Program-made: the position numbers and the translations under genes
NCBI GenBank assembly: GCA_963707125.1
Contig: CAVPOU010000004.1
Span: 84,241 to 148,240, forward strand
Direction of reading: 5' to 3'
Source of the DNA: an uncultured delta proteobacterium
Lineage (GTDB): Bacteria > Desulfobacterota > DSM-4660 > Desulfatiglandales > HGW-15
Length of the DNA: 64,000 nt
Notes under the pieces: model-generated
What the model was told of the DNA's origin: nothing
Database searches by the model: none
Seen by the model: the letters and a program-made list of their open reading frames with translations, nothing else
Shown here: positions 25,172 to 62,451 of the stretch, piece by piece
Numbering within the stretch: the stretch's first letter is position 1
Layout of the letters: each line of letters begins with the position of its first letter

Positions 25172-26138
25172 TTACCGCCGGGCCGTAATGCGCTGCCCGT
25201 CCGGGGTGTGCAGCACCAGGCGCCCCTGCGGACCGATCTCGAAGCGATGGGTTTTCTGGAGCAGCTCCAGGAAGCGCATCTCCTGGCGGCTCAACGGCTC
25301 CTCGCAGGCCATCTTCGTGCCGGCCATCTGCCCGAACGAAAGCCCCTCTCCGGTCAGGCGGAAGCTGCCCGTGAATCGGTTGCACGAGGCGTTGCCGGCC
25401 ACGCGGCCCTCCTCCAAAAAGAGGATCGTCGCCTTGGATTTTTCCGCCACCGGCACACCGTCGATGGTCTCCACGATCCACTCCAGCCCGGTGAGAAGAT
25501 TCCGGGGGTCGCCGCCGCAGCCTGCGTGCGCCTTGCCGTCGAGCTCGTAGCGCACCCGATAGGGGTGGGGCATCCCGGTGGCGACATCGGCGCAGATCTC
25601 CGGCCGGAGGGTGACCGCCAGGCGGCGGCCCTCGGCCGCGGTCCGGTAGAGGAAGCCCTCGGCGGTCGTTAGAGGTTCGGTTTTCGGCATGCGGAGCTGC
25701 AGGGCTCCGAAGTCGGCGTTGAGGAAGATCGCGTCGGCATCGATCGTGATCATCCAGCCGGGCTCCTGGCCGCGGGCGGTGAAGGGCAGGTCGGGCTCCC
25801 GCAGGGCGCGACACTCGGGAAGCTCCCGGCCGCGCACGGTCACCAGGGCCAGATCGCCCTTGCTCCAGAAACCGGTGGCGGTGTCCGTCGACGGCCGTAT
25901 AGCGGGCGCCGGAGGCCGATACGGCGGTTTTCAGGTCAAAGGATTCACCGGCAACGTTCATCCGCGCACGCCCCTCCGGTGCATTGAAGATGACCGGCGT
26001 GGTCCCGCACAGGTAGAGGATTTTGTCCGGGATCACCGGCTGTGCGCTCTTGTCCTGTCCGGTCCGGTCCGGGTGAATGCAGCCCGAGGCAAGCGCCGCA
26101 AAAGCCGCAAAAGCCGCCGCTACAAGCTTTTTGTTCAT
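25172..26138 (-). pseudogene. Lipoprotein with MliC-like and META (HslJ-like) domains, one frameshift near 25883-25890
   Basis: AGGAGG lies before ATG 26138. The lipobox is LASGC. ..LYLCGTTPVIF..SASGARYTAVD continues in another frame as TDTATGFWSKGDLALV.. (ORF 25172..25843), which contains NRFTGSFRLTGEGLSFGQMAGTKMAC. Confidence 0.7.
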
Positions 26139-26184
26139 ATAGTTCCTCCTTTCCCGGAGCCGGCACCGCCGCTGCGTGATTTGC

Positions 26185-26667
26185 CTATCCCTGGAGTACC
26201 TCCCGCAGCCGCTGCTCATCGTCGAGGGCAAGCGACGTCTTCAGGACTTTGCCTTTGAAACCTTGCAGGCGTTCCAGCACCTTGTCCTCCGTGGCCTGGC
26301 GAAAGAGCACGAACAGGACCGAAGCGCCGGGAGTGAAGTCCTTGCTGAACTCCTTCATGAACTTGTCGTCGATGCCGATGTCCGTCAGCTTGCCGCTCAG
26401 CGCACCGGCGGCGGCGCCCACGGCGGCGCCCAGCAGGGGATTGAGAAAGAGAACGCCGATGAGCATGCCCCAGAAGCTGCCGCTCACGGTTCCCGTCAAG
26501 GTCAGGTCGACCGCCTGATGCAGCTTCACCTTGCCCTTTTCATCCTTGGTGACCACGACAACGTCCTTCATGTCGATCAGATACTCTTTCTGCATCTTGG
26601 CCAATTCCGCCCGCACAGCAAAAGCGGTGTGCTCGTCGTGAAACTCGATCGCTACTAAGTCAGACAT
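26185..26667 (-). CDS. DUF1269-family membrane protein
   Basis: 160 aa. MSDLVAIEFHDEHTAFAVRAEL..KDVVVVTKDEKGKVKLHQ..Gly-zipper TM..GIDDKFMKEF is the typical pattern. Confidence 0.85.
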   Translation of the reverse strand: MSDLVAIEFHDEHTAFAVRAELAKMQKEYLIDMKDVVVVTKDEKGKVKLHQAVDLTLTGTVSGSFWGMLIGVLFLNPLLGAAVGAAAGALSGKLTDIGIDDKFMKEFSKDFTPGASVLFVLFRQATEDKVLERLQGFKGKVLKTSLALDDEQRLREVLQG

Positions 26668-26745
26668 AAAGACCTCCTTCGATGGGTTTAAATGGTTGGT
26701 GTCACGGTGCTGGTTCCAAAAACCCCATGAACACTAGGGACAGTG

Positions 26746-29096: not shown

Positions 29097-30309
29097 CTAT
29101 TCCTGGGTCGCCAGCGCCACGGCCAAGCGGCAGCCCTTGAGGTACTCCGGCACGTTCACGTACTCCTTGACGGTGTGGACCTCGGCCTGTCCCGAGCCGA
29201 AGGTCACCGTCGGCACGCCGTGCTTGACCAGCCAGTTGGCATCGAGGCCTCCGTTCGAGCTGATGACCTCGGGCGTCATCCCGAGCGACTCGACCGCGCG
29301 CCGGGCATACTGCACCGCCGGCGATTTCTCGTCGAGCTTGAAGGGCGGATAGGACGGCTGTGCATCGAACTTGACCTCGGCCATCTCGCCGTCCGAGTTT
29401 TTCACGGCTTCCCGCGCCTTCATGAACGCGTCGCGGTAGCCCGCCGCGATTTTGCCGGCGAACGCGGCATCGTGGCTGCGTGCTTCGCCGGTAATGTGGA
29501 CGTAATCGGTGACGACGTTGGTGGCGTCGCCGGCTGCCTTGCGGTCCTTGCCGCCGAACACGCCCACGTTACTGGTCCCCGCGCCCTCGGGCTTCGTGAC
29601 CTTGCCGAACCAGCCGGCGCGATGCGCTTCGGCGAGTGCGATCGATCCGACGAGCGTGGCGGATATCCCCTTTTCCGGGGCCACTCCGGCGTGCGACGCC
29701 TTGCCCTTGATCTCCGCCTCCCAGTTTTCCTGGCCGACGGCGGCGATGAGCAGCATGTTCGCGTGGGTGGTGTCCACGTTGAAGCACATCCGGCGCTCCC
29801 CCGAGGTCCTTGGGGTCGAGCTCGCGGGCCCCGTGGATCCCGCTCTCCTCGCGGACCGTGAAGAGCAGGGTGAGCGGCGGATGCGGCAGCTTGTGCTTCA
29901 GCAGCGTCTCGACCATGGCGACGATCACCGCGCACCCCGTGCGCGCATCGCTGCCGAGCGCGGTGCTGCCGTCGGTCACGATCCGGTCCCCCTGGCGCAT
30001 CGGTTTGGCGCCGGCACAGAGCGCGACCGTATCCAGGTGGCTCGAGAACAGCAGCCTGTCTCCCTTCCGCGTCCCGGGAAGCTCCACGATCAGATTGCCG
30101 GTCTGCGTGGGCAGCGGGATCTTCTTGTGGACGTTGTCGAACCGGATGGCCGCCGCCGGCACCCCGACTTTCTGAAGTGCGTCCGCGACCGCCTCTGCGA
30201 TCGCCTTTTCCTCGCCGGTGATGCCTTCCACCGTCAGAAAGTTCATCAGGTGCGCTTCAGCGGCACTCACGTCCAGCGGCATGTCTTTCATCGCATTCTC
30301 CTTTAACAT
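29097..30309 (-). pseudogene. M20/M42-type metallopeptidase, one frameshift near 29795-29802
   Basis: The N-terminal piece (ORF 29569..30309: ..LLFSSHLDTV..GSDARTGCAV..FTVREESGIHGAREL..) continues in another frame (ORF 29097..29789: ..FNVDTTHANML..ASHAGVAPEKGIS..). The junction is at a C5/G5 run. Confidence 0.75.
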
Positions 30310-30410: not shown

Positions 30411-31956
30411 CTAAAAGCCCCACGGCAGACCGAGCAGGTACCAGACGGCAAACAGACCCGTCCACGCAACGGTCATCCACACCGCGTAGGGCAGGAGCAG
30501 CGCCACCACAGTGCCGATGCCGGTGTTTTTGGCGTACTTCTGTGCAAACCCGACGACCAGCGCGAAATAGGCATTGAGCGGCGTCAGCGTGTTGGTCGGC
30601 GAGTCGCCGACGCGATACGCCGACAACACGGCCGCGGGGTCCACATTCAGGGTCACGAAGAGCGGCACGAAGACCGGCGCGAAGATCGCCCACTTGGCGA
30701 TCGCGGGCGTGAACACAATGTTCAACGCGGTGACCACGAGGATGAACCCCAGGAGCATCCAGATCGAGCCGATATTCGCGGCTTTGAGGGCGTCGGCCAT
30801 CGTCACCGCCATCAGCGTCGGCAGGTTGCTGTAGTTGAAATAGGCGATGAACTGGCTGATGACCAAAAACAGCAGGATGCGTTCCGCCGAGCCCGCTGAT
30901 CGCTTTGGTCATGGCGCCGATGACGTCGGCGCTGCTCTTCATCGTGGCGGCCCCGATGCCGTAAGCGACGCCGGCCGCGAGGAACACGAACATGATCGCG
31001 ACGATCAGCCCGTTCATGAACGGTGAGTTGCCGATCAGCGCGCCGGTTTCCGGATTTCGCAGCGGAGCGCCGGACGGCAGGGTCAGGAGCCCGAAAATCC
31101 CTAGCACCAGAACCAGAGCGACCGCGGCAAAGGCGAGACCGCGCCACTCGGCGGCCGCCAGGCTGGAGCCCTGCGCGGCTGGCTCAGTGCCCTCGGCGTG
31201 ACTCGGATCAAACTTGCCCAGCCGCGGCGAGATGACGCGATCGGTGACCAGCGCGATCACGATCACGAGCAGTGGCACCGAAACGATCGAAAACAACAGA
31301 CCGGAGGTTAGTTCGATCGTTCGCGTCGGGTCCACCATGCGGATCGCGTCGTTGGTCAGTTCGGTCAGCACCGCGTCCAGCGGCTTGATGAGCATGTTGA
31401 CGTTGAAGGCGCCGGCCACCGCTGCGAACCCCAGCGCGATGCCCGCCAGCGGGTGCCGGCCGAGGCTGAGGAACGCGGCGCCGGCCAGCGGGATCAGGAC
31501 CACATAGCCGGCATCTGCGGCAATGCTGGAGAGCACGCCGACGAAGGCCAGCAGGTACGTGATCGACCAGGCCGGCGCGACCGCCACGATCATGCGGATC
31601 AGGGCCTTGATGAGTCCGGCTTCCTCGGCCACGCCGACGCCCACCATCGCCACGACGAGGAGCCCGATCGCGGCGAACCCCATGAAGTTGGGCACCAACC
31701 GGACGTAAATGTCGCGGATCCCGCTCGCCGTGGCGAGGCTGCGCGCCTGCGTCGTAGCGGTCTCGATCGCGTGCGTCTCCGGATTGATCACCTGGTAGGT
31801 GACGCTCGCGCCGGTCGCTTCCAGAATGAAGGAGAGGACGATGACAAACCCAATCAGGATCAGGAAGATGATCACCGGATGCGGGACCCGGTTGCCGACT
31901 TGCTCGACGGTGTCCAGGAACCGCTGCATCATCGATTTGGGTGCTCTGGAGGTCAC
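30411..31956 (-). pseudogene. AbgT-family (p-aminobenzoyl-glutamate/dipeptide) transporter, one frameshift near 30875-30887
   Basis: ORF 30385..31956 is AbgT-like (..FLDTVEQVGNRVPHPVIIF..) up to ..AMTKAISGLGG. It then continues as ILLFLVISQFIAYFNYSNL.. in ORF 30411..30866. Confidence 0.75.
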
Positions 31957-32070: not shown

Positions 32071-33052
32071 TTAGTGATACGGCGCGAACGCCGCGGCAAC
32101 GTCGGCGCCTTTTCCGCCGCGCATGACGAGGCCGAGCAGCAGCCGCGCCTTGAGGCCCGAGAGGCAGCCCGCGGACACGACACCGCGCTTGATCAGGTCG
32201 ATTTCCGCTCCGGGATAGCCGTAGGTGCGGGTGAAGACATGGCCCGTCATGGCACGGCTCGCGAGCACCACCGGTATTTTGGCCGCCAGGTCGCCGACGA
32301 TGGGAGCCACGTCCGCATGCACGTGGCCGGCGCCCATCCCCTCGATCACCACCCCCGCGTAGCCCAGGCCGGGCAGCGATCCGAACAGGCGCCCGTCGTC
32401 GCCCATGGCGGCCTTGATGAGCGCCACCGGTGCGGGCGGGCCCTCTGCGGCCGGCAGGGTGGGGTTGCGCGTCACGCGCACATAGAAGCGCGGCTGCCGT
32501 TCGATGAGGGTGCCGATCGGCCCGACCAGCGGCGAGAGAAACGCCGAGGGCAGGGCGGTGTGCGATTTTTGAACGAAACGCGCCGCATGAATGTCGTAGT
32601 TGAGGACCGCGAGCGTTCCGAGGCCGCGCGACTCCGGGCATGCGGCGACGATGGCCGCCGACAAGAGATTGGCGGGCCCGTCCGCGCCCGGTGCATCGGC
32701 GCCGCGCATGGCGCCCGTGACGACCACCGGCTTGTCGGAGTCGACGAGGAGATCGAGCAGGAACGCCGATTCCTCGATGGTGTCGGTGCCCTGGATCACC
32801 ACCGCGGCGTCGAACCCGGAAGCGAACGCCTCCCGGATCGTGCTCGGCGACTTCGACCAGGTTCGCCGGGGTGAGCGAGGGGCTGGGCAGGCGGAAGGGC
32901 GACCGCGCGTCGATGTCTCCGACTTCGGCGAGCGCGGGCACCGACGCCACCAGCTCGGCGGCGCCCAGTTTGGGGGTGATGCCGCCCGAATCGCTCGGGA
33001 CCATGGTGATCGTCCCGCCGAGCGAGAGAACGAGAAGACGGGGTTTGTTCAT
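32071..33052 (-). pseudogene. L-asparaginase (type I-like), one frameshift near 32845-32857
   Basis: MNKPRLLVLSLGGTITM.. (start 33052) runs to ..TPANLVEVA. It then continues in another frame as STIREAFASGFDAAVVIQGTDTIEESAF.. (ORF 32071..32802). Confidence 0.75.
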
Positions 33053-37324: not shown

Positions 37325-40300
37325 ATGGTCAAGTACTTCATCCACCGCCCCGTCTTCGCCATCGTCATCGGACTGATCATCCTCATCGCCGGGGGGCTCG
37401 CCATCCTGGCCCTGCCGACCTCCCAATACCCGCCCATCAGCCCTCCCACGGTCACCGTGGAGACCTTTTTCGTGGGGGCCAGCGCCCGGGTGGTCGAGCA
37501 GAACGTGGCCATCCCGATCGAGCAGGAGGTGAACGGGGCCGAGAACATGCTCTACATGTCCTCGAGCAGCACCAGCGACGGCCGCTACCGCCTCGTCTGC
37601 ACCTTCGCCGTGGGGACCGACATCGATATCGCCCAAGTCGACGTGCAGAACCGCGTGAGCCGGGCCGACAGGGCCCTGCCCCCCGAGGTCATGAATTCGG
37701 CATTTCGGTCCGGAAAGCCTCGCCGGACATGCTGATGGTCCTTTCCCTCTTCTCCCCGGAGGGGACCTACGACGACCTGTTTCTCAGCAACTTCGCATCC
37801 CTGAACATTTTCGACCACATCGCCCGCATCTACGGTGTGGGCGACATCGCCATCGTGGGAGAGCGCGAGTACGCCATGCGCCTTTGGGTCCGGCCCGACA
37901 AGCTGGCCGGCCTGGGGCTCACGGCCCGGGATGTCGCCCAGGCGGTGCAGGACCAGAACATCCAGGCCCCCTCCGGCCAGGTGGGCCAACCGCCCGCCAC
38001 AGCCGGGTTGAGCCGGCAGGAGAGCGTGGAGGTTCGGGGGCGCCTGACCGAGGCGGAGGAGTTCGGGAACATCATCGTCCGTGCGCGCCCCGACGGCTCG
38101 ATCCTGCGGGTGCGGGACGTGGCGAGCACCGAACTGGGCGCCCGGAGCTACACCTCGTTCTCCCGCCGGGCCGGACAGCCGGCCACGACCCTGGTGATCT
38201 ACCAGCTCCCGGGAGCCAATGCACTCGACGTGGCAAGCAAGATCCGGGCCTTCATGGAACAGACCAGCCGCAGCTTTCCGCCGGGCCTCGAGTACGAAGT
38301 CTCATATGACAACACCTTGTTCGTTCGGGTTGCACTCCAGGAGGTGGTCTTCACCCTGTTCAAGGCCCTGGGACTGGTGATGCTGGTGGTCTTCGTCTTT
38401 CTCGGGAACTTCCGCGCCACGCTGATCCCCTGCCTGGTGGTGCCCATCCCCATGGTGGGCACCTTCGCCGCCTTCGCGGCCCTGGGATTCTCCATCAACA
38501 CCCTCTCGCTCTTCGGCCTGGTGCTGGCAATCGGCTCGGTGGTGGACGACGCCATCGTGGTGGTGGAAGCGATCAAGGCCCACATGGCGAAAGGCTTGAG
38601 TCCGCTGGAGGCCACGGAGAAGTCCATGGACGAGGTCACCCGACCGATCATCGGGGTGGCCTGCGCGCTGCTGGCGGTCTATGTGCCGGTGATTTTCCTG
38701 GGGGGCATCGTCGGCCAGCTCTACCGGCAGTTTGCACTCACTCTCTGTTTCGCCGCGCTGCTCTCGATTCTCGTCTCCCTGACCCTTACCCCGGCCCTGT
38801 GCGTCAAGATCCTGCGCGCCAAGAAGAAGGAGGGGGGGCTTCTCAACGCCTTCAACCGCGGGTTCAATCGGCTGTTCGACGCCACCACCTCCGGCTACCT
38901 CAAGGGGATTCAATTCCTGATGCGCCGCCTGATCCTGGCCCTGGTGCTGTTGGCGGCGGTCTACTTCGGGGCCGGCCGTCTCCTGCAGACCCTGCCGGGG
39001 GGACTGGTGCCCGATGAGGACCAGGGGGTGGTTTTCGCCACTTTCAACCTGCCGCCGGGGGCCACCCTGGAGCGCACCGACGCGGTCTTGTCGCGCGCGG
39101 AGCGGTTTGCAGCCGAGGTCCCGGGCATCCGGACGGTGCTTGGCTGGGGCGGCTTCAACCTCATGACCAGCTCTTTCAGCTCCGACGCCGCCACCCTGGT
39201 CATGACGCTCGCCCCGTGGGGAGAACGGACCTCCCCGGAGACCCAGCTCGTTGCCATCATGCAGGGCCTGAGGCGGGAGTTCGCCGACTATCCCGAGGCG
39301 CGGGCCTTTGTCTACTCCCTGCCCTCCATTCCCGGCATGGGCAATGTCAGCGGCTTCCAATACATTCTCCAGGACCGGGCCGACCACACCCCGGAGGAGC
39401 TCTTCCAGAGGGCCCAGGAGATGGTGGCCGCCAGCGCCGCAGAGCCTGCGATCGGCGTCCTGTTCAACACCTTCCAGGTGAACGTGCCGCAGGTTCAGCT
39501 GGAGATCGACCGGGAAAAGGTCCAGACCCTGGGGATCCCCTTGAGAGGCGTGCTCGAAGGCTTGCAGCTTTACTTGGGCGGTTTCATGATCAACGACTTC
39601 AACCAATTCGGCCGGGTCTTCAGGGTGATGATCCAGGCCAAGCCCGAATTCCGCCAGGGGCCCGAGGCCATCGGCGACATCTACGTCCGCAACACGGCCG
39701 GCAAGATGGTGCCTCTCAGCACGCTGGTGAAGATCAACGCGCAAAGCGGCCCCATCCACATAAACCGCTACAACATGTTTCGCGCGGCGGAGCTCTCCGG
39801 CCAACCGGCCCCCGGCTTCAGCTCCGGTCAGGCCATCGCCGCCATGGAGCGACTCTCCGAGACCCTGCCCCGCGGCTTCGGCCACGAATGGACGGGCCTC
39901 GCCTTCCAGGAGAAACTGGCCGGCGGCCAGGCCGTTTACATCTTCGCCTTTTCCGTGCTCTTCGTCTTCCTGGTGCTGGCGGCGTTGTACGAGAGCTGGG
40001 CCATCCCCATCGGGGTGCTCCTGGGGCTGCCGATCGCCGTTTTCGGCGCCTTTCTCGGGATCTGGTTTCGGGGGTTTGCGAACGATGTGTACGTGCAGGT
40101 CGGTATCGTGATGCTGATCGGTCTCAACTCCAAGCTCTCGATCATGATCGTGGAGTTCGCCAAGAACAAGCGGGACCTCGAAGGCTTTACAACCTTCGAC
40201 GCTGCAACGGAGGGGGCCAAGCTGCGCTTCCGGGCCGTCCTGATGACCGCTCTGGCGGAAGTCTTCGGCCTGATGACCCTGGTGCTCTCCTCCGGTGCCG

Positions 40301-42485: not shown

Positions 42486-42494
42486 CCCTCCCGC

Positions 42495-45618: not shown

Positions 45619-45643
45619 GTGTCCGCCTCCTTCAAACTGATTA

Positions 45644-47676: not shown

Positions 47677-47890
47677 CTATCGAGCTACCTCTTCGATATC
47701 CGGCAATTGCCAGCTCCTATCGAAGTAAGATTCTGTCGGTGCATAGAGACGCAAATATGCAAACCAACCTTTTCCCGGAACAGTCGGTATCCAGTTCTTT
47801 TCAAGACCCTTGGGTGGTTCAGGGCCAAAATAGAGATCCACCGAGCCATCTTCGTTCTTGACAAGATCCATTCGGGAATCGAGCCCGGCA
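47677..47890 (-). pseudogene. C-terminal remnant of a DUF1254/DUF1214-family gene
   Basis: ..GLDSRMDLVKNEDGSVDLYFGPEPPKGLEKNWIPTVPGKGWFAYLRLYAPTESYFDRSWQLPDIEEV aligns with the C-termini of the genes at 57969, 59475 and 61046. The N-terminal ~400 aa are absent. Confidence 0.6.
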
Positions 47891-49785: not shown

Positions 49786-51010
49786 TATGAGCGCTGCGCA
49801 GGGGCAGGAGGCGTTGCGGCGGTTTGCGAAAGTTTGCGGCGGGGCTTCCTCCTGCGCGAGCAGCTCTATGATTTTCGGAGACGGCGCGCGTCGAATGAGT
49901 AACTCGGTGAGAATTTTCAGCGAGGTCGGGCGTGCGTAAAAAACGATTTATAGCCGCACACAGGTAATTGAGTGCGGGCTCGCATCGGGGGTGGTCAAGA
50001 ACGATTTTAGGGGCACTCGGTGGCAGGCAAACAAATACTGGCATTGACGACAAGAACGGACAGGTTCGCGCTTGTCTGACGAACTTGTGCTGCTTTCCGA
50101 GTCCACGAGCTCGAAAGGGAGTTTGCATTATATTCCAGATAGTAGTCCGGTTCCACGAAGTGATCACAGGAATAGAGATCGCCGTTGTGCTCCAGTGCTA
50201 TGCCCAGGCCGCAGGTGGGACCGAAAATGCATAACGTTCCCGCCATCCCAGCCATCCGGCCAGGGCTCCGTCGAAATTGAGGACGAAGGTCCGCCCACAT
50301 CCCTTTCACCCATTCGTCAAAGATCTCAATCAAAAACCGGCCGCACTTCCCCGCGCTGAACGGATCGGTCGTGACCTCGTGCTTTCCTGAACGCGCTTCA
50401 TTTTTCCGCTCCACAATGGGGATGAACTGGAGATACGGACGTCGATTCATCCTGAAGAACCGGTAGACTTCTAGAGGATGATCAGCGTTCTGGCGTTGAC
50501 GGTGCAAAGGACATTGAACGCGACGCTATGTTCTTGCAGCAGCTTGGCCCCTTGACCGCTCGTTCGCATGTCTCTCGGCCGCCTTTATCTTTGCGGTAGA
50601 AGTCGTGCAGCTCTTAGGCCCGTCGAGACTGAGTCCGATCAAGAAGCCGTTTTCTCGAAAGATGACACCACTCCTCATCAAGCAAAACGCCGTTGGTCTG
50701 GAAGGTGTTCTCGATCCAGGTGCTGGGACGGCGGTATTTTCTGAAGCTCCAGGGAGCGCCGAAAGAAATCTAGCCGCATCAGCGTCGGCTCTCCGCCCTG
50801 CCAGGCCACGGTGACTTGAGGAACCTGATGAGCTTCCAGGAGCTGCTGGATATACGGGTCGAGAACCTCTTCCGACATCCGGAAATACCCGGATAAAGCC
50901 CTTCTCTTGAGGAAAAAACATAAGCACAGTGAGGTGCAGGCCGATCCTGTGGCTTGGCATGATATGGAAGGCGGTGGAAACTTTTGGAGGCGTGGTTTGT
51001 ATTCATTGGT
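49713..51010 (-). pseudogene. Anaerobic sulfatase-maturating enzyme (radical SAM, AslB/AtsB-like) with multiple frameshifts
   Basis: Pieces lie in three frames: ..AKP/GSACTSLCLCFF..RMSEEVLDPYIQQLLEAHQVPQVTVAWQGGEPTLMRLDFFRRSLELQK.. (50678..50878); ..FLIGLSLDGPK..; ..HPLEVYRFFR..LQFIPIVER..FDEWV..LCIFGPTCG..LEHNGDLYSCDHFVEPDYYL.. (50007..50507); ..CRQCQYLFAC..ALNYLCAA..; and a SEC-C-like ..NASCPC..KKCHGQ tail. Confidence 0.65.
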
Positions 51011-51137
51011 TTCCTTGGTTGAGGGATGTTCATATGGCCGTGGGGCTTGCAGGGCTTCATGGAGGTGCTACTTTTCTTGTCAGGACCGGCAGCGCGCTCG
51101 CGCTGCCGGCTCCGATCCTGTTACTGCCGCGCCATAA

Positions 51138-53417
51138 TCATGCGCATCTCGGCTCGCTATCTTCGATCACATCGCCGCTGACGTCGAACGTCACCTGTGG
51201 ATCGTACGGTGAACCAAAGGGCGGCTCGTAGAACGGCGCACCGGCGCGCCAGGATCGGCGCCGACGATCATCGCTCCGGTTAGCCCCAAGGTGAAAGGCG
51301 TGGTGTGAGGGAAATCGGCCTGGCCGACGAGTTTGCCATCGATGTAGAGCTGGGCGCGGCCGGGAGTGCCCTTGCCATTGGCGAAGTCCGGCGGGCCGGT
51401 CACTTCGAATTCGAAGCGCAGATCGTGGCGCTGGCCGGGATCGGGACGGTGCTCGCCACCTGCAGATAGTCGCGAGCCACGTAATTTTGAACGTATGGAG
51501 TTTGCCATCTTGCACGTAGAACGAATAGCCGCCATCCACGCCTCCAAAAGAAACGAGAGCCCTTCCGCTCCGCCCGAGGGGATCTCCACGTCTGCGGTGA
51601 TGCTGTGCGTGCGGTTGAGTGTAATCGCTCCGGCATTATAAGGCACAGCCTGCGTGTGCGGGTAGAAGGTGTAATGCGTGCGGTTCTTGGTGAGCTGCGG
51701 GCGTTCATCCGCGTAGCGCTGCACGCCGCGGCCATCCACCGGAAGCACGTGGTATTTCCCTGCTTCGACATACCAGGTAGCGATCATCTCGATCAGCTTG
51801 GAGCGGTTCCCTTCGGCGATGTTATGGTTTTCGGCGAAATCCGCGTCCACATGGTAAAGCTCCCAGCTTCTAGCATCCAGCTCGGTCAGTTTTCAGCCGG
51901 GATCGGATTCCAAAACCGGTACCTGCCTCGGTGAACGAAGGGCCGGGCCAGGGGCAGACTGCCCGCCAGCCATCGTGGTAGATGGAACGGTGGCCGAGCA
52001 TTTCGAATACTGGGTGTGATGCTTGCTCTCGGCTTGGGCATCATCGAGAGTATGCGCGAAACTGACACCCTCGATCGGGGATTGCTGGACGCCTTTGATA
52101 GAGGCAGGGGGTTCCAATCCGACGAGTTCCAGCACCGTAGGCATCCAGTCGATGACATGCGCATACTGGGTGCGCACCTCGCCCTGGCTTTGAAGCCGCT
52201 GGGGAAGTGCACGATGAAGGGATCGCAGATCCCACCCCGATAGGTCTCGCGCTTCCAACGGCGGAACGGTGTGTCGCCCGCCCACGTCCAGCCCCAGGGA
52301 TAATGGTTGAAAGTGGTCGGGTCGCCCAGCTCGTCAATGTGCTTGATATTCGTTTGCAGGTCTTCTTTCACGTTATTGAAGAACAGATTCTCGTTGACCG
52401 AGCCGGTCGGTCCGCCTTCGGATCTGGCGCCGTTGTCGGAGACTAACATGATCAAGGTATTGTCAAACTCGCCGAGTGGATTTCAGGAAGTCAAACATCC
52501 GGCCCAGATGGAAGTCGGTGTGCTCCATGAAACCGGCGTAGACCTCCATCATATGGGCGTACAACCTCTTTTCGTCCGCCGAAAGCGTATCCCACTGCGC
52601 CACATCGGGATCGTGCCGGGACAGCTCGGCATCCGCCGGGACGAGGCCCATCTCTTTCTGGCGGGCGAAGGTCTTTTCGCGGTACACATCCCAGCCCTCG
52701 TCAAACTGCCCTTTATACTTGTCCGACCATTCCTTGCGCACTGATGCGGTGCGTGCATAGCGCCGGGAGCAAAATACATGAAGAAGGGTTTATCAGGCGC
52801 CACCTGCTTGGCGTCGGCGATGAAGCTGATCGCCTTGTCCACCAGGTCCTCGGTGAGGTGGTAGCCCTCTTCGGGTGTCTTGGGAGGCTCCACCTGGTGG
52901 TTGTCATAAACCAGCTCGGGGTAATACTGGTGGGTCTCGCCGCCCATGAAACCGTAGTAACGCTCGAAACCGCGTCCCAACGGCCAGCGGTCATACGGTC
53001 CGCAGCCGAAATCTGGTCGGCCGGAGTCAGATGCCACTTGCCAACGGCATAGGTGTTATAGCCGTTCTGCAGCAGGATCTCCGAGAGGAAACCGTTCTCG
53101 AAGGGGATGTTCGCGTTATACCCGGGAAACCCGTCGAACCTTCGGTATGCAGGCCATGGCGTTGGAATGATGATTGCGCCCGGTAGGATGCAGGCGCGCG
53201 TGGGCGAGCATAACGCCGTGGTATGCATATTGTTGAAACGCAGACCGTTTTCCGCCAGGGCATCCATATGGGGGGTTTTGATCGGGTTGCCGTAACAGCC
53301 AAGCTGCCCAAAGCCGACATCATCCAGCACGATGAACAGGACGTTTGGCGCCCCTTCCCGGGCGCGCGTGGGCTCGGGCCAGGCCTGTAGAGGTGTCGAA
53401 CGTGCGGCCGACAACAC
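51138..53417 (-). pseudogene. Large (~760 aa) arylsulfatase with at least five frameshifts
   Basis: Seven overlapping ORF pieces are collinear with one sulfatase: ..NVLFIVLDDVGFGQ..TTALCSPTRACIL..(52713..53417); ..PYDRWPLGRGFERYYGFMGGETHQYYPEL..(52549..53037); ..KEWSDKYKGQFDEGWD..(52463..52741); ..MLVSDNGA..(51886..52455); ..VIDWMPTVLEL..(51893..52285); ..WYVEAGKYHVLP..(51191..51850); ..VTFDVSGDVIED (51138..51539). Confidence 0.75.
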
Positions 53418-53538
53418 CGTTAAAGGCAGTTCCGGGCTTGCACTCTTTTAGGGACATAGCGATAGCCTCCTTATTAGGAAATTAGAAATCTACAACCGAT
53501 AGGAATATCTTCAACCTAGTTTCCGCTCGTGCCATTCA

Positions 53539-53706
53539 CATTGCGCCGAATATGTAGATGTGTGGTTCTTCTTATCTCACCATTTCCGATGATGGCCAGA
53601 AGCTTGAGAGAGATCAAGAAGGGTGCACGGGGGTTGGACCCGCTTTGCCGTCTCTGTTGTTTCCGATCTGGCCATGGCATTTCTTGAATTTGAGCCCGCT
53701 GCCGCG
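53539..53706. repeat. Second copy of the 49649-49785 repeat, extended by a degenerate SEC-C-motif remnant
   Basis: The - strand reads ..[32 protein letters not shown] (CPC lost). 53669-53706 is also shared with 56320-56357. Confidence 0.7.
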
Positions 53707-56465: not shown

Positions 56466-56825
56466 TTAGTGTTCCAGGCCGTCGTTGATGATGCCCAGGA
56501 CCTTCGGCGGCACCTCGATGACGGCCGGGCCCGTCTGCTTCAGGTCGAGGCTGAGGCTGGTGTAGATGCTCTCGGTGTTGTAGGTCAGGCCGATGGCGAT
56601 CGACTTGCCTTCACCCGGCTCGACGTACACGATCATGCCCCCGGTCTCGCTGACTCCGTAGTCGCGCGGGTGCGCGTCCAGAAAGGCCTGCATCGACATC
56701 GCGGGCATGAAGTCGAGGTAGGCCTGCGCGGCGCGCTGCAGGTCGAGTTGGTCGTAGAGCTTGCGAATGGTCTCTGCCGTCGGATAGCCGCCTTCGTATC
56801 GCAGTTCGTCTAGATTGCTGATCAT
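56466..56825 (-). pseudogene. N-terminal (DUF1254) fragment of a DUF1254/DUF1214-family gene
   Basis: GGAGGAATC lies before ATG 56825. MISNLDELRYEGGYPTAETIRKLYDQLDLQRAAQAYLDFMPAMSMQAF.. aligns with the N-terminus of the 57969 gene. It stops after ~119 aa, where the repeat/SEC-C region begins. Confidence 0.6.
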
Positions 56826-56844
56826 GATTCCTCCAAAATGCTCA

Positions 56845-59366: not shown

Positions 59367-59474
59367 AATATTTTCTCCTGAATAATGGTCCACAACCCGG
59401 TTGAATTTAAACTAAAAGTTAGAAGTAAACTTCTTATGCCATAGACTCGCATCAGTGCCTGGAGGTCCCACCTG

Positions 59475-60953
59475 TCACTTCATCTTCGCTACGTCGCCGG
59501 GTTTCCAGGTCTTCGTGAGAGCCGGTTCGGTCGGCCCGTAGAGCCGCAGAACGGCGAAGTACCCTCTCTCGGGCACCGTGGCGAGCCAGTTCTTCTCCTT
59601 GCCCTCCGGGGCTTTCGGCCCGAGGTAGAGATCGGTGCTGCCGTCGGCGTTCTGGACCGGCAAGTCGCGCGATCCGAGCGACGGGAAGGGCTGGCCGTTG
59701 GCAAGGCCCGAAGCGTTCTCGGCTTCGTACAGCGTCACGGACCAGAAGTTCGCGGCCGGCACGTCCTTCGGCATGTTCAGCTTGTAGTTCGTCCCACCGG
59801 TCAGGGGCACGCCATCGCCGTCGGTGAAGGCGATGACGTAGAACGCTCCCTTGCCGGGAATCTGCGAGAGCATGCCGGGGCTGATCGAGTAGTAGTTCGA
59901 GAAAAACCACGGGCGGCAATCGACATCGAGAGCCCCGCCGCGATCCACTCGCCGCCAACTCAGGTCGAGCTTGCCGCTCGGCTTCTCCGCCGTCGCATCG
60001 GCCATCGGATTGACCCAGCGGCGGTCGGGGTACATCCGGAACGACCGACCGGACACGACCTCATCGAAGGCGATCACGCGGCTCATCTTGTACGCCGACT
60101 TCGCCGCGCGGTCGAGGATGCCCCGCATGCGTTCGTCCGGCTGAAACGGCTCCCCCTTCACGATGCCGAGTCCGGCCAGCATGCCCATCCAGTCCGGGTC
60201 GGCCAGGTGCGGCCCTTCGGCGTCCACCAGCTTCTTCAGTTGGTCGAAGGCCGTCGCGTCGCTGATCGGGAGCATGTTCGCCGGTACGCCCGAAGCATCC
60301 GGGAACTTCATCGGTTTGGCCTCGCCCTTCAGCGGGTAGATCTTCGTCTTCTCGATCAGCTCGACCGGCGGCTTCAGGTCGCTCGCATCGGCATAGAAAG
60401 CCCGGAGAAACACGAACACGTTGTTCGTGCCCGAGCGGCAGACGAAGTAGCCCTCCGGGACTTCGCCCTCGTAGCCCGGCGGCAGGAGCAGGAACTTTCC
60501 GCCCTTCCCCTGATCCGGGCCGAAGAAGCCGAAGTCGCCGGCGTACTTGCCGCCATCGACGGGGATCGGCCGTTGCCAGAAGTCCAACAGGATGCCCTGC
60601 AACATGGGCGGGGCGTCGAACACGAGCGGGCCGTCCTTGCCGAGATCGACGTAGCTCATCGCATAGATCACGTCCGAGTTCGGCGTGGTCACGAGCGTCC
60701 TGGCGTCGAGGCGCTTCTTCCACACCGGCAAGACGTTGTGCCCCTCGCCGAACGTCTTCTCGGAGCCGACCTTCATGCCGAGCGTATTGATGAGCGGCAA
60801 CGCCCAGAGGTACGTTTGCGTGGCGCGGTGGTAAAGCATTTCATCGCGTAGCGTCTGCGCCGTATCCGCCGTGGCTCGGTTTTCCACGAAAGGAAGGTTG
60901 GCGATCTGCTCTTGATGCTGAATGGCTGGCGACGTGTTAAGCTTTATGGACAT
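59475..60953 (-). CDS. DUF1254 + DUF1214 domain protein, intact (high-GC paralog)
   Basis: GAGGAG lies before ATG 60953 (MSIKLNT..). ..GPDQGKGGKFLLLPPGYEGEVPEGYF..ADGSTDLYLGPKAPEGKEKNWLATVPERGYFAVLRLYGPTEPALTKTWKPGDVAKMK. The 685-aa ORF in the track is an upstream read-through of this frame. Confidence 0.85.
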   Translation of the reverse strand: MSIKLNTSPAIQHQEQIANLPFVENRATADTAQTLRDEMLYHRATQTYLWALPLINTLGMKVGSEKTFGEGHNVLPVWKKRLDARTLVTTPNSDVIYAMSYVDLGKDGPLVFDAPPMLQGILLDFWQRPIPVDGGKYAGDFGFFGPDQGKGGKFLLLPPGYEGEVPEGYFVCRSGTNNVFVFLRAFYADASDLKPPVELIEKTKIYPLKGEAKPMKFPDASGVPANMLPISDATAFDQLKKLVDAEGPHLADPDWMGMLAGLGIVKGEPFQPDERMRGILDRAAKSAYKMSRVIAFDEVVSGRSFRMYPDRRWVNPMADATAEKPSGKLDLSWRRVDRGGALDVDCRPWFFSNYYSISPGMLSQIPGKGAFYVIAFTDGDGVPLTGGTNYKLNMPKDVPAANFWSVTLYEAENASGLANGQPFPSLGSRDLPVQNADGSTDLYLGPKAPEGKEKNWLATVPERGYFAVLRLYGPTEPALTKTWKPGDVAKMK

Positions 60954-61045
60954 GATTGACTCCTCTTGGGTTAAAGATATGGATCGAACGCAAGCACGCT
61001 CTCCGGAAGCGAGTTTTGCATCGCTGCCGGAGAGCGGCGAACAAG

Positions 61046-62451
61046 TCACTTGACGCGAACGAGATCCGGCAGTCCCCAGCTGCGATCGAAGTAGGTTTCG
61101 GTCGGCGCATAGAGGCGGAAGTAAGCGAACCAGCCACGACCGGGGGCCGTCGGAATCCAGTTCTTCTCCTTGCCCTTCGGTGCCTCTGGGCCGATGTACA
61201 AGTCCACGGAACCGTCGGCGTTCTTGATCAGGTCTTTCCGGGAATCCAGCCCGGCGATGTCGTGCTTCGTCTCGATGAAGCTGCGGGTCTCCGTGTCGTA
61301 AAGCGTCAGCGCCCAGAATTGCTTGGCGGGGGCATTCGGCGGAACGCGGAGCGTATAGTTGTTGCCGCCCTGCAGCCATTGCCCGTCCTTGTCTTTCTGG
61401 ATGCCGATGTAGACCTGTCCTAGTCCGGGAGTTTTGCTTGTCATCCCGGCGGAGAGGGTCATGGCCTCGTAGAACCAGGCCGTCGCGCTCATCGAGAGCG
61501 GTGTGGTACTTGGTCTCCTGGTCGGCATCCAACAGGATGGCGTTCTTCCAGTGGGTATCGGGCCACAGACTTGGCTTCCTTCTGGCGCTTGGCGTAACTG
61601 TGCGCCCGCGCCATCGACTCGCCTACCACCGCCGCTTGTTCCAGAATCTTCTTCTGCCGCGCGTCCGGCTCGAACTTCTTGCCCTTTTCGATGCCTAGCG
61701 GCTTGAGCATGGCCACCATCATGCGGTCGCGGTCGTGGACGGGTTCCTCATTGAGCATCTTGGAGACGAGCTGCCAGAACTCGAGCCCGGTTCCCGGCCA
61801 AGCGTACCACTTCTTCCCTTCTGCGGGAATGATCCGCGTCTTGCGTGGGTTGTCTCGTTTGGCATAGGGATAGGCTTGATAACTGCTCTTGAGCACTTCC
61901 GCTTGTTTCGGGTCCGTGGTCAGCACGCGAAACCCATGCAAGATGTTGTTTGCGGGAGATTCGAAGACGCGGTAGCCCTCGACGCCTTTGGGGGCTTTCT
62001 GGCCGGGCGGCACCACCAGGTACTTGCCACCTTCGCCCTTGTCGGGCCCACTCAGGCCCATGTCGGTGATCGGGCGCTGCCACAAGTCGAGGAGGCCGCC
62101 GGCAGTCAGACCTTTCGGATACTGAATCACCAGCGGGCCGGTTCGTTCCAGGTTCACGAAGCCAACCAGGTACGTCGTGGTGTCGTTCGGTGTGAGGATC
62201 CCCAACTTGTCGCGAAAACTCACAAATTGCACGAGATCGCCATCCTCCTGGCCGAACACAGTCTCGTACTGCTCCTGCCATTTCGCGAAAGAGACGATCG
62301 GAATCGCCCACAGGTAGGCTTGCGTGGCTCGCTGGAAATCCATCTCTTCATACAGCTTATCGACGGTTTCGTTGGATGGATACCCACCCTCGAACCTCAG
62401 CTGGCCAATGCGGGTTTCCATGCCACCGGTGGTGGGGAGCTTCGTTTTCAT
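61046..62451 (-). pseudogene. DUF1254 + DUF1214 domain protein with two frameshifts (near 61565-61570 and 61481-61487)
   Basis: GAGGAGG lies before ATG 62451. ORF 61489..62466 (..GGYPSNETVDKLYEEMDFQRATQAYLWAIP..GPDKGEGGKYLVVPPGQ..) passes to a short middle frame (WPDTHWKNAILLDADQETKYHTALDER), then to ORF 61046..61528 (ATAWFYEAMTL..ADGSVDLYIGPEAPKGKEKNWIPTAPGRGWFAYFRLYAPTETYFDRSWGLPDLVRVK). Confidence 0.75.

What the first reader, a model, noticed from the sequence alone, without database searches (positions are those of the whole stretch)
25172..62451. Unusually high density of frame-disrupted genes confined to the high-GC block
**Disrupted genes.** Within 25-62 kb at least ten genes need one or more frame changes to be read through:
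- MliC/META lipoprotein (~25886)
- M20 peptidase (~29798, at a C5 run)
- AbgT transporter (~30880)
- asparaginase (~32850)
- AcrB-like pump (~37698)
- NodT-like outer-membrane factor (~41396)
- anaerobic sulfatase maturase (several)
- the large sulfatase (at least five)
- one DUF1254/DUF1214 gene (two)
- copy 2 of the 2H-HAD gene (two compensating indels)

**Truncated fragments.** The block also contains a solute-binding protein, an alkylsulfatase, a DUF1214 tail and a DUF1254 head.

**Contrast.** Neighbouring genes of similar composition are intact: glsA, the MFS transporter, the MFP, ThrE, the 513-aa sulfatase, SLC13 and two DUF1254/1214 genes. Every gene in the low-GC 21.8 kb is continuous.

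**Why it matters.** The pattern fits an acquired island undergoing pseudogenisation. It also fits a region assembled at low coverage or from error-prone reads, and the two readings have very different biological meaning. All three components of the RND pump operon except the adaptor are hit, so the system is probably non-functional.
Basis: partly seen in the sequence, partly recalled or inferred. Interest (0 to 1): 0.6.

Follow-up and report, generated by a model that had tools for sequence, protein, structure and literature searches.

The report
Frameshifts are probably assembly errors
The broken reading frames in the high-GC block are really in this sequence, but they most likely come from consensus errors in a long-read metagenome assembly of a real, strain-variable acquired region, not from gene decay.

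Summary
All ten listed genes need frame changes, and the 21.8-kb low-GC part has none.

The window comes from an 803,504-bp MAG contig of a Desulfatiglandales-like bacterium. Every isolated frameshift is a single-base indel found only in this contig:
- Positions: ~25883, 29794, 30879, 32846, 37696, 41397, ~61553, ~61590, 63857, 63884.
- Each of the eight sites that short-read contigs cover has the intact frame in all of them (1 to 9 per site, 94-99% identical).
- Three other contigs with assembler-style "contig_N" names carry different private single-base insertions in the same RND operon. The short-read contig carries none.

The "large sulfatase" has 20 frameshifts in 2.3 kb but shows no decay:
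- It has no stop codons.
- It is 91.5% identical to intact 784-aa homologs.
- Only 4 of 276 family-invariant residues are changed.
- It lies, with the maturase, in a 3.8-kb segment missing from two related contigs.

Substitutions private to the window still look like purifying selection (11 synonymous, 9 non-synonymous).

Some features are real:
- the compositional island
- truncated gene fragments; one is confirmed by short-read assemblies, three more are shared with a second assembly
- a 12-bp deletion removing the AbgT start codon
- a 363-bp AbiEii deletion

Reads are needed for proof.

The parts
1..21876 (.). Low-GC host core of a Desulfatiglandales-like Thermodesulfobacteriota bacterium. 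It has no frame-disrupted genes.
   Evidence: - GC is 0.46-0.55.
- The CysK-CysRS ORF is 91-92% identical in amino acids to MAG loci L007 and L008.
- Window 2513-14110 is 99.7-100% identical to short-read contigs L002-L005 with 0 gaps.
21877..22529 (.). Left boundary zone of the accessory block, where synteny with relatives ends.
   Evidence: The alignment to L008 ends at 21876 and the alignment to L007 ends at 22529. Nothing downstream in either relative matches window 22.5-64 kb.
25172..26138 (-). MliC/META lipoprotein gene with one extra base at ~25883.
   Evidence: - Pfam MliC and META fall in different frames.
- A frameshift-aware alignment to the intact 321-aa JGI protein P0413 gives 92.5% identity, one +1 event and 0 stops.
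- The fragment occurs only on the 803,504-bp source contig.
29097..30291 (-). M20/M28 peptidase gene with one extra base at 29794, next to a C5 run and with an adjacent substitution.
   Evidence: - Pfam halves are split between frames.
- The extra base is absent from 6 of 6 short-read contigs.
- The C-terminal 229 aa match intact 397-aa Logan proteins.
30411..31956 (-). AbgT transporter gene with one extra G at 30879. It also has a real 12-bp deletion (31951-31960) that removes the ancestral ATG.
   Evidence: - Pfam 1-339 and 342-495 lie in different frames.
- The extra G is absent from 8 of 8 short-read contigs.
- The 12-bp deletion is shared with JGI contig L096.
- Intact 516-aa homologs are 98% identical.
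32071..33052 (-). L-asparaginase gene with one extra base at 32846, flanked by two window-private substitutions.
   Evidence: - Pfam halves are split between frames.
- The extra base is absent from 9 of 9 short-read contigs.
- The C-terminal 242 aa are identical to the intact 326-aa P0159.
37325..40488 (+). AcrB-type RND permease gene with one base missing at 37696.
   Evidence: - Pfam 1-128 and 123-1020 lie in different frames.
- The base is present in L088, L001, L092 and L093.
- L088 encodes an intact 1053-aa protein.
40500..41961 (+). Outer-membrane factor (OEP) gene with one extra G at 41397.
   Evidence: - The two OEP repeats lie in different frames.
- The G is absent from L088, L001 and L092.
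49788..53580 (-). A 3.8-kb strain-variable segment flanked by 109-nt direct repeats (49680-49788 and 53581-53689). It holds the maturase (~49.9-51.0 kb) and the 784-aa-type arylsulfatase (51124-53457). Frameshift density is about 8 per kb.
   Evidence: - The segment is missing from L001 and from JGI contig L110, where SLC13 abuts 2H-HAD.
- Sulfatase: 18 one-base deletions plus 2 insertions, 0 stops, 91.5% identity to P0292, and 4 of 276 invariant columns changed.
- Maturase: stitched from at least 8 frame pieces, it hits TIGR03942 at E = 2.8e-91.
61052..62466 (-). DUF1254/DUF1214 gene with two frame changes at about 61553 and 61590.
   Evidence: - tblastn with the intact paralog places residues 11-301 and 333-474 in different frames.
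- The frameshift-aware alignment finds two +1 events. Positions are approximate because the reference is only 37% identical.
62564..64000 (-). 2H-phosphoesterase/HAD gene, copy 2, with compensating +1 (63884) and -1 (63857) indels 27 nt apart.
   Evidence: Both indels are private to this copy. They are absent from copy 1, from L001 and from 8 to 9 short-read relatives.
56478..56825 (-). DUF1254 'head' fragment. It is a real truncated gene.
   Evidence: - tblastn matches residues 27-129 only.
- The same short ORF is present in short-read contigs L181 and L182, which align to 56182-60644 without gaps.
47686..47859 (-). DUF1214 'tail' fragment at the edge of a segmental duplication (47.7-49.8 kb resembles 62.2-64.0 kb).
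   Evidence: - tblastn matches residues 417-474 only.
- Repeat families D1 and D5 have a spacing of 14518.
- The fragment is also in L001.
43268..43702 (+). AbiEii toxin remnant, cut by a 363-bp deletion relative to L001. It lies in a lower-GC toxin-antitoxin cassette flanked by ~310-bp direct repeats (41987-42298 and 44784-45094).
   Evidence: - Pfam AbiEii covers profile positions 2-100 of 238 only.
- L001 positions 12792-13154 have no counterpart in the window.
42299..42488 (.). A 190-bp fragment of an NMT1_3-type solute-binding protein gene.
   Evidence: It is 97.9% identical to part of the intact 451-aa NMT1_3 gene of L092.

Best explanation
**What the block is.** The window joins the ~52% GC core of a Desulfatiglandales-like bacterium to a real, laterally acquired, strain-variable accessory region of 58-67% GC.
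- That region carries genes for amino-acid catabolism and transport, an RND pump, a toxin-antitoxin cassette and a sulfatase/DUF1254-DUF1214 cluster.
- Its rearrangements, duplications and truncated gene pieces are real.

**What the frameshifts are.** The single-base frameshifts are most likely consensus errors of a long-read-only metagenome assembly.
- They pile up where read support is thin or mixed.
- They are sparse in the part shared with many co-occurring variants (25-42 kb and 61-64 kb).
- They are extremely dense in a 3.8-kb insertion that only some genomes carry (49.8-53.6 kb), where the consensus looks close to raw-read quality.
- On this reading the RND pump, AbgT, asparaginase, M20 peptidase, MliC/META, sulfatase and maturase genes are probably intact in the organism.

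**Shown versus inferred.**
- Shown: the lesions are private, short-read relatives are intact, and the pattern of selection is preserved.
- Inferred: the sequencing platform and the cause of the local errors.
For: 1. **Privacy.**
   - Each of 29794, 30879 and 32846 occurs only in the window and in 0 of 6, 8 and 9 short-read contigs from different samples. Those contigs are 97.0-99.2% identical to the window.
   - 37696 and 41397 are absent from short-read L088.
   - 63857 and 63884 are absent from 8 to 9 short-read relatives.
   - Four broken products looked up by exact sequence (AcrB N-terminal, M20 C-terminal, AbgT N-terminal, asparaginase C-terminal) exist on one contig only, the 803,504-bp source. 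Their 90%-identity clusters hold many full-length proteins. The same holds for the META fragment.
2. **Association with assembly type.**
   - In a five-way alignment of the RND operon, short-read L088 has 0 private indels.
   - The 'contig_N' assemblies have 2 (window), 2 (L092: 1 nt and 8 nt), 12 (L001) and about 23 (L093).
   - Nearly all are single-base and all but one lie at positions unique to one assembly.
   - L001 also breaks the BASS transporter ORF with a private G. The window's intact 291-aa version of that protein is found exactly on ten short-read contigs.
3. **No sign of decay in the sulfatase.**
   - It has 20 frameshifts but 0 in-frame stops and 91.5% identity to an intact homolog.
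   - Only 4 of 276 columns invariant in 99 homologs are changed. Intact homologs show 0-5 in a leave-one-out control. About 24 would be expected if its 66 differences fell at random.
4. **No sign of relaxed selection at 27-35 kb.**
   - Window-private codon changes are 11 synonymous and 9 non-synonymous.
   - Intact short-read relatives are similar: L094 12/8 and L087 26/15.
5. **The lesions are of one kind only.** All are 1-nt indels, with no nonsense mutations and no larger frame-breaking events inside these genes.
6. **Sharp boundaries.**
   - Frameshift density jumps from 0 to about 8 per kb exactly at the edges of a segment that L001 and JGI L110 lack.
   - 56182-60644 is gapless against short-read contigs, and so is the core.
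7. **Indels shared with short-read contigs behave differently.** They are intergenic or in-frame.
8. **Context.**
   - The nearest genome relative is a Microflora Danica Nanopore MAG.
   - That catalogue was assembled with Flye --meta --nano-hq and one Medaka round, and the methods passages retrieved mention no short-read polishing (PMC12313526).
Against: - No reads were available, so neither coverage nor platform of the source contig is known. Nanopore/Flye origin is inferred from contig naming, contig size and the nearest relatives.
- Most isolated indels are not in homopolymers, which is atypical of classical Nanopore errors.
- Eight of the ten isolated indels are insertions, whereas the sulfatase segment has mostly deletions. 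Two error regimes therefore have to be assumed.
- No short-read contig is 100% identical to the window in the affected genes (best 99.2%), so strain-specific real mutations cannot be formally excluded.
- The core of the same contig is error-free. The error model therefore needs local causes, such as lower coverage or mixed haplotypes in accessory DNA, and these are not demonstrated.
- AbgT alone shows 7 non-synonymous versus 4 synonymous changes on the window branch. The numbers are small but go in the direction of relaxed constraint.
Confidence: 0.78

Rival explanations
1. Genuine recent pseudogenisation. In this strain the acquired island lost selective value, and its genes picked up real single-base frameshifts.
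For: - The block does contain real remnants: truncated DUF1254 and DUF1214 pieces, an AbiEii deletion and loss of the AbgT start codon.
- The indels are mostly outside homopolymers.
- The core of the same contig has no indels.
- The AbgT window branch has 7 non-synonymous and 4 synonymous changes.
- Failed horizontal transfers are a known source of bacterial pseudogenes (general knowledge).
Against: - None of the eight isolated frameshift sites covered by short-read relatives is reproduced in any of them.
- No nonsense mutations occur anywhere.
- Window-private substitutions look purified (11 synonymous, 9 non-synonymous).
- The sulfatase keeps 272 of 276 invariant residues despite 20 frameshifts.
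- Three other 'contig_N' assemblies show different private indels in the same operon, while the short-read contig shows none.
- The isolated indels are mostly insertions (8 to 2). This runs against the deletion bias usually reported for bacteria (general knowledge).
Confidence: 0.12
2. Chimeric contig. The high-GC block belongs to a different, rarer organism and was joined to the Desulfatiglandales core by misassembly. Its low coverage would explain the errors.
For: - GC and GC3 change abruptly near 22 kb.
- Synteny with relatives ends at 21.9-22.5 kb.
- No tRNA or integrase lies at the junction.
- The errors are confined to the block.
Against: - Short-read contigs L087 and L094 also run from the same high-GC genes into lower-GC DNA (55-59% in L087). 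That DNA encodes ferredoxin and molybdopterin proteins (L087) or cytochrome c3 (L094), typical of sulfate reducers.
- Part of the block (56.2-60.6 kb) is error-free and is 99.9% identical to a contig from run ERR3804378. Runs ERR3804373 and ERR3804374, with adjacent accession numbers, carry the host core at 99.8-100% identity.
- L007 shares sequence up to 22529, which is inside the transition zone.
Confidence: 0.07
3. Mixed case. The dense 49.8-53.6 kb frameshifts are errors, but some of the ten isolated indels are real strain-specific mutations.
For: - The two groups have different indel spectra: 18 deletions to 2 insertions, versus 8 insertions to 2 deletions.
- The 12-bp loss of the AbgT start codon is real and lies in the same gene as a frameshift.
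Against: The same privacy and selection arguments apply to each isolated site. No individual site has independent support.
Confidence: 0.15

Closest known systems
Indel (frameshift) consensus errors in Nanopore-only metagenome-assembled genomes, which give split or shortened ORFs
   Same: - All lesions are single-base indels that split otherwise well-conserved ORFs.
- They are absent from short-read assemblies of near-identical sequence.
- Different long-read-style assemblies of the same genes have different private indels.
- The likely pipeline family (Flye plus one Medaka round; the methods passages retrieved mention no short-read polishing) is described in PMC12313526.
   Different: - The errors are not mainly in long homopolymers.
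- They are strongly localised to accessory DNA within one long contig, and the core is clean.
- Insertions dominate among the isolated sites.
- The cited paper links reduced coding density to low coverage, low GC content and long homopolymers, and does not mention high-GC islands.
Pseudogene-rich genomic islands, that is, decay of failed horizontally transferred genes
   Same: - The block is compositionally foreign.
- Synteny with relatives is broken.
- It contains truncated gene fragments, duplications and deletions seen in independent assemblies.
   Different: - The point frameshifts lack the expected companions: nonsense mutations, a neutral substitution pattern, and sharing among related genomes.
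- Tests for these gave negative results.
Strain-variable accessory regions (flexible genomic islands) in metagenomic populations
   Same: - Insertions and deletions of 0.36-3.8 kb separate the window from L001, L087 and L110. Direct repeats flank the 3.8-kb segment that L001 and L110 lack.
- The same gene cluster circulates at 90-99% identity in many samples. Two of its 90%-identity protein clusters hold 163 and 182 members.
   Different: No integrase, tRNA target or other mobility gene was found in the window. The right end of the block lies beyond the window.

Membership tests
Evolutionary pseudogenes (decaying island) | The inactivating lesion is reproducible in independent assemblies of the same or a closely related lineage. 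| tested here: not met
   - 29794, 30879 and 32846 are absent from 6, 8 and 9 short-read contigs.
- 37696 and 41397 are absent from L088, L001 and L092.
- 63857 and 63884 are absent from 8 to 9 short-read relatives.
- The five broken products looked up by exact sequence occur on one contig only.
Evolutionary pseudogenes (decaying island) | Relaxed selection: a neutral substitution pattern, with conserved residues hit as often as variable ones. | tested here: not met
   - Sulfatase: 4 of 276 invariant columns changed, against about 24 expected under neutrality.
- Window-private codon changes are 11 synonymous and 9 non-synonymous, like intact relatives.
- AbgT alone gives 4 synonymous and 7 non-synonymous changes, a small sample.
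Evolutionary pseudogenes (decaying island) | A mixed lesion spectrum: nonsense mutations and larger indels as well as frameshifts. | tested here: not met
   - There are 0 in-frame stops in the sulfatase (766 codons) and in MliC/META (321 codons) after frame correction.
- All lesions inside these genes are 1-nt indels.
Evolutionary pseudogenes (decaying island) | Truncated or rearranged gene remnants. | tested here: met
   - The DUF1254 head is confirmed in short-read L181 and L182.
- The DUF1214 tail and the alkylsulfatase fragment are shared with L001.
- AbiEii carries a 363-bp deletion.
- The deletion of the AbgT start codon is shared with JGI L096.
Long-read consensus (assembly) errors | Lesions are restricted to small indels and are absent from short-read assemblies of near-identical sequence. 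| tested here: met
   The closest short-read contig is 99.2% identical (L100) and intact.
Long-read consensus (assembly) errors | Other long-read assemblies of the same genes show their own, non-shared indels. | tested here: met
   L001 has 12, L092 has 2 and L093 has about 23 private indels in the RND operon (one insertion is shared by L001 and L093), against 0 in short-read L088. The long-read origin of these contigs is inferred from 'contig_N' names only.
Long-read consensus (assembly) errors | Homopolymer or low-complexity context. | tested here: inconclusive
   Only 29794 (C5 run) and perhaps 37696 (T2 versus T3) involve runs. 30879, 32846 and 41397 do not.
Long-read consensus (assembly) errors | Low or heterogeneous read support at the affected sites. 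| not testable with these tools
   No reads or coverage data were available. The only indirect evidence is that the densest errors coincide with a segment absent from L001 and L110.
Horizontally acquired genomic island | Compositional shift and loss of synteny relative to close relatives. | tested here: met
   - GC is 0.46-0.55 in the core versus 0.58-0.68 in the block, and GC3 reaches 0.95.
- Synteny with L007 and L008 ends at 21.9-22.5 kb.
- glsA and the MFS gene are 74-77% identical in nucleotides to Roseomonas plasmids.
Horizontally acquired genomic island | Mobility hallmarks at the borders (tRNA target, integrase, flanking repeats). | tested here: not met
   - The only tRNA (Phe, 13335-13410) lies 8.5 kb from the boundary.
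- The Pfam scans of ORFs across the block found no integrase or transposase.
- The right border lies outside the window.

The most novel reading that the evidence does not exclude
The ten isolated single-base frameshifts are real. One strain of this sulfate-reducer lineage would then have very recently inactivated a widely shared, otherwise strictly conserved acquired gene cluster: the RND pump, AbgT, asparaginase, M20 peptidase and MliC/META. Such a strain would be a snapshot of the first steps of island decay.
Probability: 0.12. Interest if true: 0.3.

Novelty: not a real feature. Interest (0 to 1): 0.12.

Why it matters
Mainly as a caution.
- Taken at face value, this contig would be annotated with more than ten pseudogenes and a dead efflux pump.
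- It could also be cited as an example of island decay.
- The comparison with short-read contigs shows that frameshift density in long-read-only MAGs can be strongly local. It can be clean in the core and severe in strain-variable accessory DNA.
- Pseudogene counts in accessory regions of such MAGs therefore need read-level or cross-assembly checks.

The real biology left over is ordinary. It is a flexible, laterally acquired region whose gene cluster circulates at 90-99% identity in many sediment and freshwater metagenomes.

Tried and rejected
- **Exact-protein look-ups failed** for MFP, glsA and ThrE as first translated.
  - The ThrE reference began at a GTG, which translates to V rather than M. 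With the residue changed to M, ThrE was found.
  - The MFP look-up began at the first possible ATG (460 aa). A 392-aa version from an internal ATG was not on record either.
  - The 334-aa glsA product starts at an ATG and was not on record, and I did not find out why.
  - Three more guessed products also missed (AcrB 919 aa, M20 N-terminal 240 aa, AbgT 523 aa), probably because the start choices were wrong.
- **Searching with the raw 234-aa sulfatase ORF** returned only short fragment proteins, and the tblastn pictures were confusing. A hand-stitched, frame-corrected query then found 784-aa homologs.
- **E. coli genomes:** no match to the core.
- **Plasmid matches at 80-95% identity** in hundreds of Enterobacteriaceae plasmids. 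The listed matches are stretches of 250 nt or less in conserved RND permease sequence, so they are not informative.
- **Shared insertion locus:** I looked for one by comparing the tails of L087, L094 and L092 with 80 relatives. Nothing useful came up.
- **Rfam:** only tRNA-Phe.
- **Methylation-motif idea:**
  - Two insertions follow GTGCTC (32846 and 41397).
  - The window has 49 such sites and the other 47 are unaffected, so there is no systematic motif error.
- **Confirming that ERZ25039461, ERZ25039527 and ERZ25039600 are Microflora Danica Nanopore assemblies:** no supplement text is held.
- **Programmed frameshifting or recoding** was considered and rejected.
  - The sites share no slippery motif.
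  - Close relatives read straight through at the eight covered sites.

Full report
**Source and layout**

The window has two parts.
- Positions 1-21.8 kb have 46-55% GC.
- The rest has 58-68% GC, with an interruption of about 50% GC at 42-46 kb.

The source could be traced from exact-protein look-ups and relatives.
- The window belongs to an 803,504-bp contig deposited in NCBI and ENA.
- The CysK-CysRS fusion ORF at 19516-21849 is 91-92% identical to two MAGs. One is an 'uncultured Desulfobacteraceae' MAG (L007) and the other is MFD00032.bin.1.156, a Microflora Danica Nanopore MAG (L008).
- Nucleotide similarity to these relatives ends at 21876 (L008) and 22529 (L007). Nothing further downstream in them matches the block.
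- The only tRNA is tRNA-Phe at 13335-13410.

**Checking the observation**

GC3 frame plots show abrupt phase changes inside apparently continuous coding sequence at about 25.8, 29.7, 30.8, 32.85, 37.65 and 41.35 kb. The signal is chaotic between 49.9 and 53.4 kb.

Pfam scans show consecutive parts of one family in adjacent ORFs of different frames:

| Gene | Split seen in Pfam |
|---|---|
| M20 peptidase | profile 1-79 / 112-205 |
| AbgT | 1-339 / 342-495 |
| Asparaginase | 1-67 / 61-189 |
| AcrB | 1-128 / 123-1020 |
| OEP | the two OEP repeats |
| MliC/META | MliC / META |

Other checks agree.
- The DUF1254/1214 copy at 61-62.4 kb is split between two frames.

All ten claims therefore hold, and so do the truncated fragments.

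**Independent assemblies of the same DNA**

Searching with a frame-corrected AbgT found intact 516-aa proteins at 96-98% identity. Their contigs, and contigs found through cluster members, gave twelve short-read assemblies (MEGAHIT 'k141', JGI or Logan) from different samples. These are L087-L091 and L094-L100.
- They share the gene order MFS-asparaginase-AbgT-M20-ThrE-Ysc84.
- L088 extends it, with glsA next to the MFS gene and MFP-AcrB-OEP beyond glsA on the opposite strand.
- They are 94-99.2% identical to the window, and every gene in them is intact.

The multiple alignment shows the following.
- The extra bases at 29794, 30879 and 32846 are present only in the window.
- They are absent from 6, 8 and 9 short-read contigs respectively.
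- All other indels are intergenic or in-frame, and subsets of contigs share them.
- One shared event is a 12-bp slippage deletion between GGTCTCAGC repeats. It removes the AbgT ATG and also occurs in JGI contig L096, so it is real.

Other sites give the same picture.
- The AcrB (-1 at 37696) and OEP (+1 at 41397) lesions are absent from L088, L001 and L092.
- The two compensating indels in 2H-HAD copy 2 are absent from copy 1, from L001 and from 8 to 9 short-read relatives.
- MliC/META has one +1 event relative to an intact 321-aa JGI protein.
- The DUF1254/1214 sites at ~61553 and ~61590 have no close relative to compare against. The MliC/META site rests on that single protein comparison.
- Five broken products looked up by exact sequence occur on the source contig only. 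Their 90% clusters contain many full-length members.

**Association with assembly type**

Three further ENA contigs named 'contig_N' carry the same RND operon: L001, L092 and L093. Their ERZ accession numbers lie close together. A five-way alignment gave these counts:

| Contig | Type | Private indels in the RND operon |
|---|---|---|
| L088 | short-read | 0 |
| window | 'contig_N' style inferred | 2 |
| L092 | 'contig_N' | 2 (1 nt and 8 nt) |
| L001 | 'contig_N' | 12 |
| L093 | 'contig_N' | about 23 |

- Almost all are single-base insertions, and all but one lie at positions unique to one assembly.
- Mismatches between the window and L001 in AcrB fall mostly at third codon positions (173, against 55 and 30). 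The underlying divergence is therefore ordinary purifying evolution.
- L001 also splits the BASS transporter ORF with a private G. The window's intact 291-aa version is found exactly on ten short-read contigs.

**The dense segment**

Window 49788-53580 has no counterpart in L001 or in JGI contig L110. In both, SLC13 directly abuts 2H-HAD. The segment is flanked by 109-nt direct repeats.

A frameshift-aware alignment of the intact 784-aa arylsulfatase P0292 to 53457-51124 gave:
- 766 aligned codons at 91.5% identity;
- no in-frame stop;
- 20 frameshifts, of which 18 are one-base deletions and 2 are insertions.

I then compared the frame-corrected protein with 99 intact homologs.
- It differs at only 4 of 276 invariant columns.
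- Intact homologs score 0-5 in a leave-one-out control.
- About 24 would be expected if its 66 differences were placed at random.

The neighbouring maturase can be read only by changing frame at least eight times. The stitched sequence matches TIGR03942 at E = 2.8e-91.

Twenty frameshifts with no neutral substitutions and no stops is not what decay looks like. It is what a consensus built from very few reads looks like.

**Selection in the sparsely affected part**

- Across MFS, asparaginase, AbgT, M20, ThrE and Ysc84, window-private codon changes are 11 synonymous and 9 non-synonymous.
- Intact short-read contigs give similar ratios: L094 12/8 and L087 26/15.
- Two of these private substitutions lie within 8 bp of the 32846 insertion, and another difference lies 3 bp from 29794. 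Such clustering fits a local consensus problem.
- AbgT alone shows 4 synonymous and 7 non-synonymous changes on the window branch. The numbers are small.

**Where the sequence is clean**

- The core (2513-14110) aligns to four short-read contigs with 0 gaps.
- Window 56182-60644 aligns to short-read L181 and L182 with 0 gaps. That alignment also confirms the short 'DUF1254 head' ORF as real.

The errors are therefore patchy inside the block. They are not a property of high GC as such.

**Interpretation**

The accessory block itself is real.
- Short-read contigs L087 and L094 also run from these high-GC genes into lower-GC DNA (55-59% in L087).
- That DNA encodes ferredoxin and molybdopterin proteins (L087) or cytochrome c3 (L094).

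The structural variation is also real.
- Relative to L087, the window lacks about 3.6 kb between ThrE and Ysc84. That stretch of L087 carries an SLC13 and a cation-efflux gene.
- A 363-bp deletion cuts AbiEii.
- A segmental duplication accounts for the DUF1214 tail.
- The 3.8-kb sulfatase/maturase segment is a strain-variable insertion.

The point frameshifts are best explained as long-read consensus errors concentrated where read support is thin or mixed.
- The Microflora Danica long-read catalogue was built with Flye --meta --nano-hq and one Medaka round. The methods passages retrieved mention no short-read polishing (PMC12313526).
- That the window comes from this or a similar pipeline is an inference from its relatives and contig characteristics.

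**Caveats**

- No reads were available.
- No short-read contig is 100% identical in the affected genes.
- Most isolated indels lie outside homopolymers.
- The isolated sites are insertion-biased, whereas the dense segment is deletion-biased.

**Estimates**

| Explanation | Estimate |
|---|---|
| Artefact, as the overall explanation | about 0.78 |
| At least some isolated sites are real | about 0.15 |
| Wholesale genuine pseudogenisation | about 0.12 |
| Chimeric join | about 0.07 |

These were estimated separately and overlap, so they do not sum to one.

Noticed in passing
window 45629-45919 and 55717-56058; right-half copy at 42470-42603: A ~300-nt intergenic element folds as one long, near-perfect hairpin (-147.5 kcal/mol, z = -10).
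- Its terminal inverted arms contain ACGTTCAAAAGYGTKT.
- The window has 5 arm matches, against 0.1 expected by chance.
- The two full copies sit just upstream of the RBS and start codon of a minus-strand gene.
- It has no Rfam family.
- It also occurs at the matching places in L001, but in none of the other 189 loci.
- It looks like a MITE or a structured 5' leader.
   Followed up: partly
window 19516-21849 (+): A single 777-aa ORF fuses a PALP (cysteine synthase-like) domain to a complete cysteinyl-tRNA synthetase. Full-length relatives exist in many Desulfobacterota MAGs and a few Planctomycetota MAGs, at 48-92% identity.
   Followed up: no
window 41987-45094: A lower-GC (~50%) toxin-antitoxin cassette holds AbiEi, a truncated AbiEii, and a DUF6364/PIN_3 pair. 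It is bracketed by ~310-bp direct repeats (41987-42298 and 44784-45094, 94-98% identical). The window's AbiEii lacks 363 bp that are present in L001.
   Followed up: partly
window 31951-31960: A 12-bp deletion between tandem GGTCTCAGC repeats removes the ancestral AbgT ATG and first four codons. JGI short-read contig L096 shares it, and AbgT is called as 506 aa there. It is therefore a real polymorphism, unlike the nearby frameshift.
   Followed up: yes
window 47.7-49.8 kb versus 62.2-64.0 kb; also 57972-62466: A segmental duplication (spacing 14518, 94-98% identical) carries the 2H-phosphoesterase/HAD gene and the end of a DUF1254/DUF1214 gene. There are also three tandem DUF1254/DUF1214 paralogs at only 35-44% identity.
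   Followed up: partly
window 27-42 kb; loci L087-L100: The cluster glsA-MFS-asparaginase-AbgT-M20-ThrE with the adjacent RND operon occurs at 90-99% identity in many sediment and freshwater metagenomes.
- Two of its 90%-identity protein clusters hold 163 and 182 members.
- The flanks differ between contigs.
- glsA and the MFS gene are 74-77% identical in nucleotides to Roseomonas megaplasmids.
- This looks like a widely exchanged gene block.
   Followed up: partly
L001 14912-20455 and L093 8056-12471: Within these two contigs, the private single-base insertions are concentrated in the RND operon.
- L093 has about 23 private indels in 4.4 kb of the RND operon.
- L093 has 0 gaps in the 1.6-kb AbgT stretch.
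- Uniform low coverage does not explain this. Mixed, similar RND alleles in the read pile-up is one possible cause.
   Followed up: partly
window 32840-32846 and 41391-41397: Two of the window's private G insertions directly follow the same hexamer, GTGCTC. The other 47 GTGCTC sites in the window are unaffected. This is unexplained and may be coincidence.
   Followed up: partly
window 49766-49807, 53667-53708, 56310-56351: A repeated 42-nt motif reads, on the minus strand, as a SEC-C-like peptide ([12 protein letters not shown]). Two copies lie in or beside the direct repeats that flank the 3.8-kb variable segment.
   Followed up: no
L006 (Roseomonas gilardii plasmid pRo-1), locus 8535-9928: The stretch that aligns to the window's asparaginase region has no listed gene in the plasmid table. 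It could be a pseudogene there, or it could be a gap in the PLSDB gene table.
   Followed up: no
window 4425-4811 (-): A 128-aa 23S_rRNA_IVP / bAvd-like four-helix-bundle gene sits next to a radical SAM gene in the host core. It is conserved in four short-read contigs. bAvd proteins accompany diversity-generating retroelements, but no reverse transcriptase was looked for.
   Followed up: no
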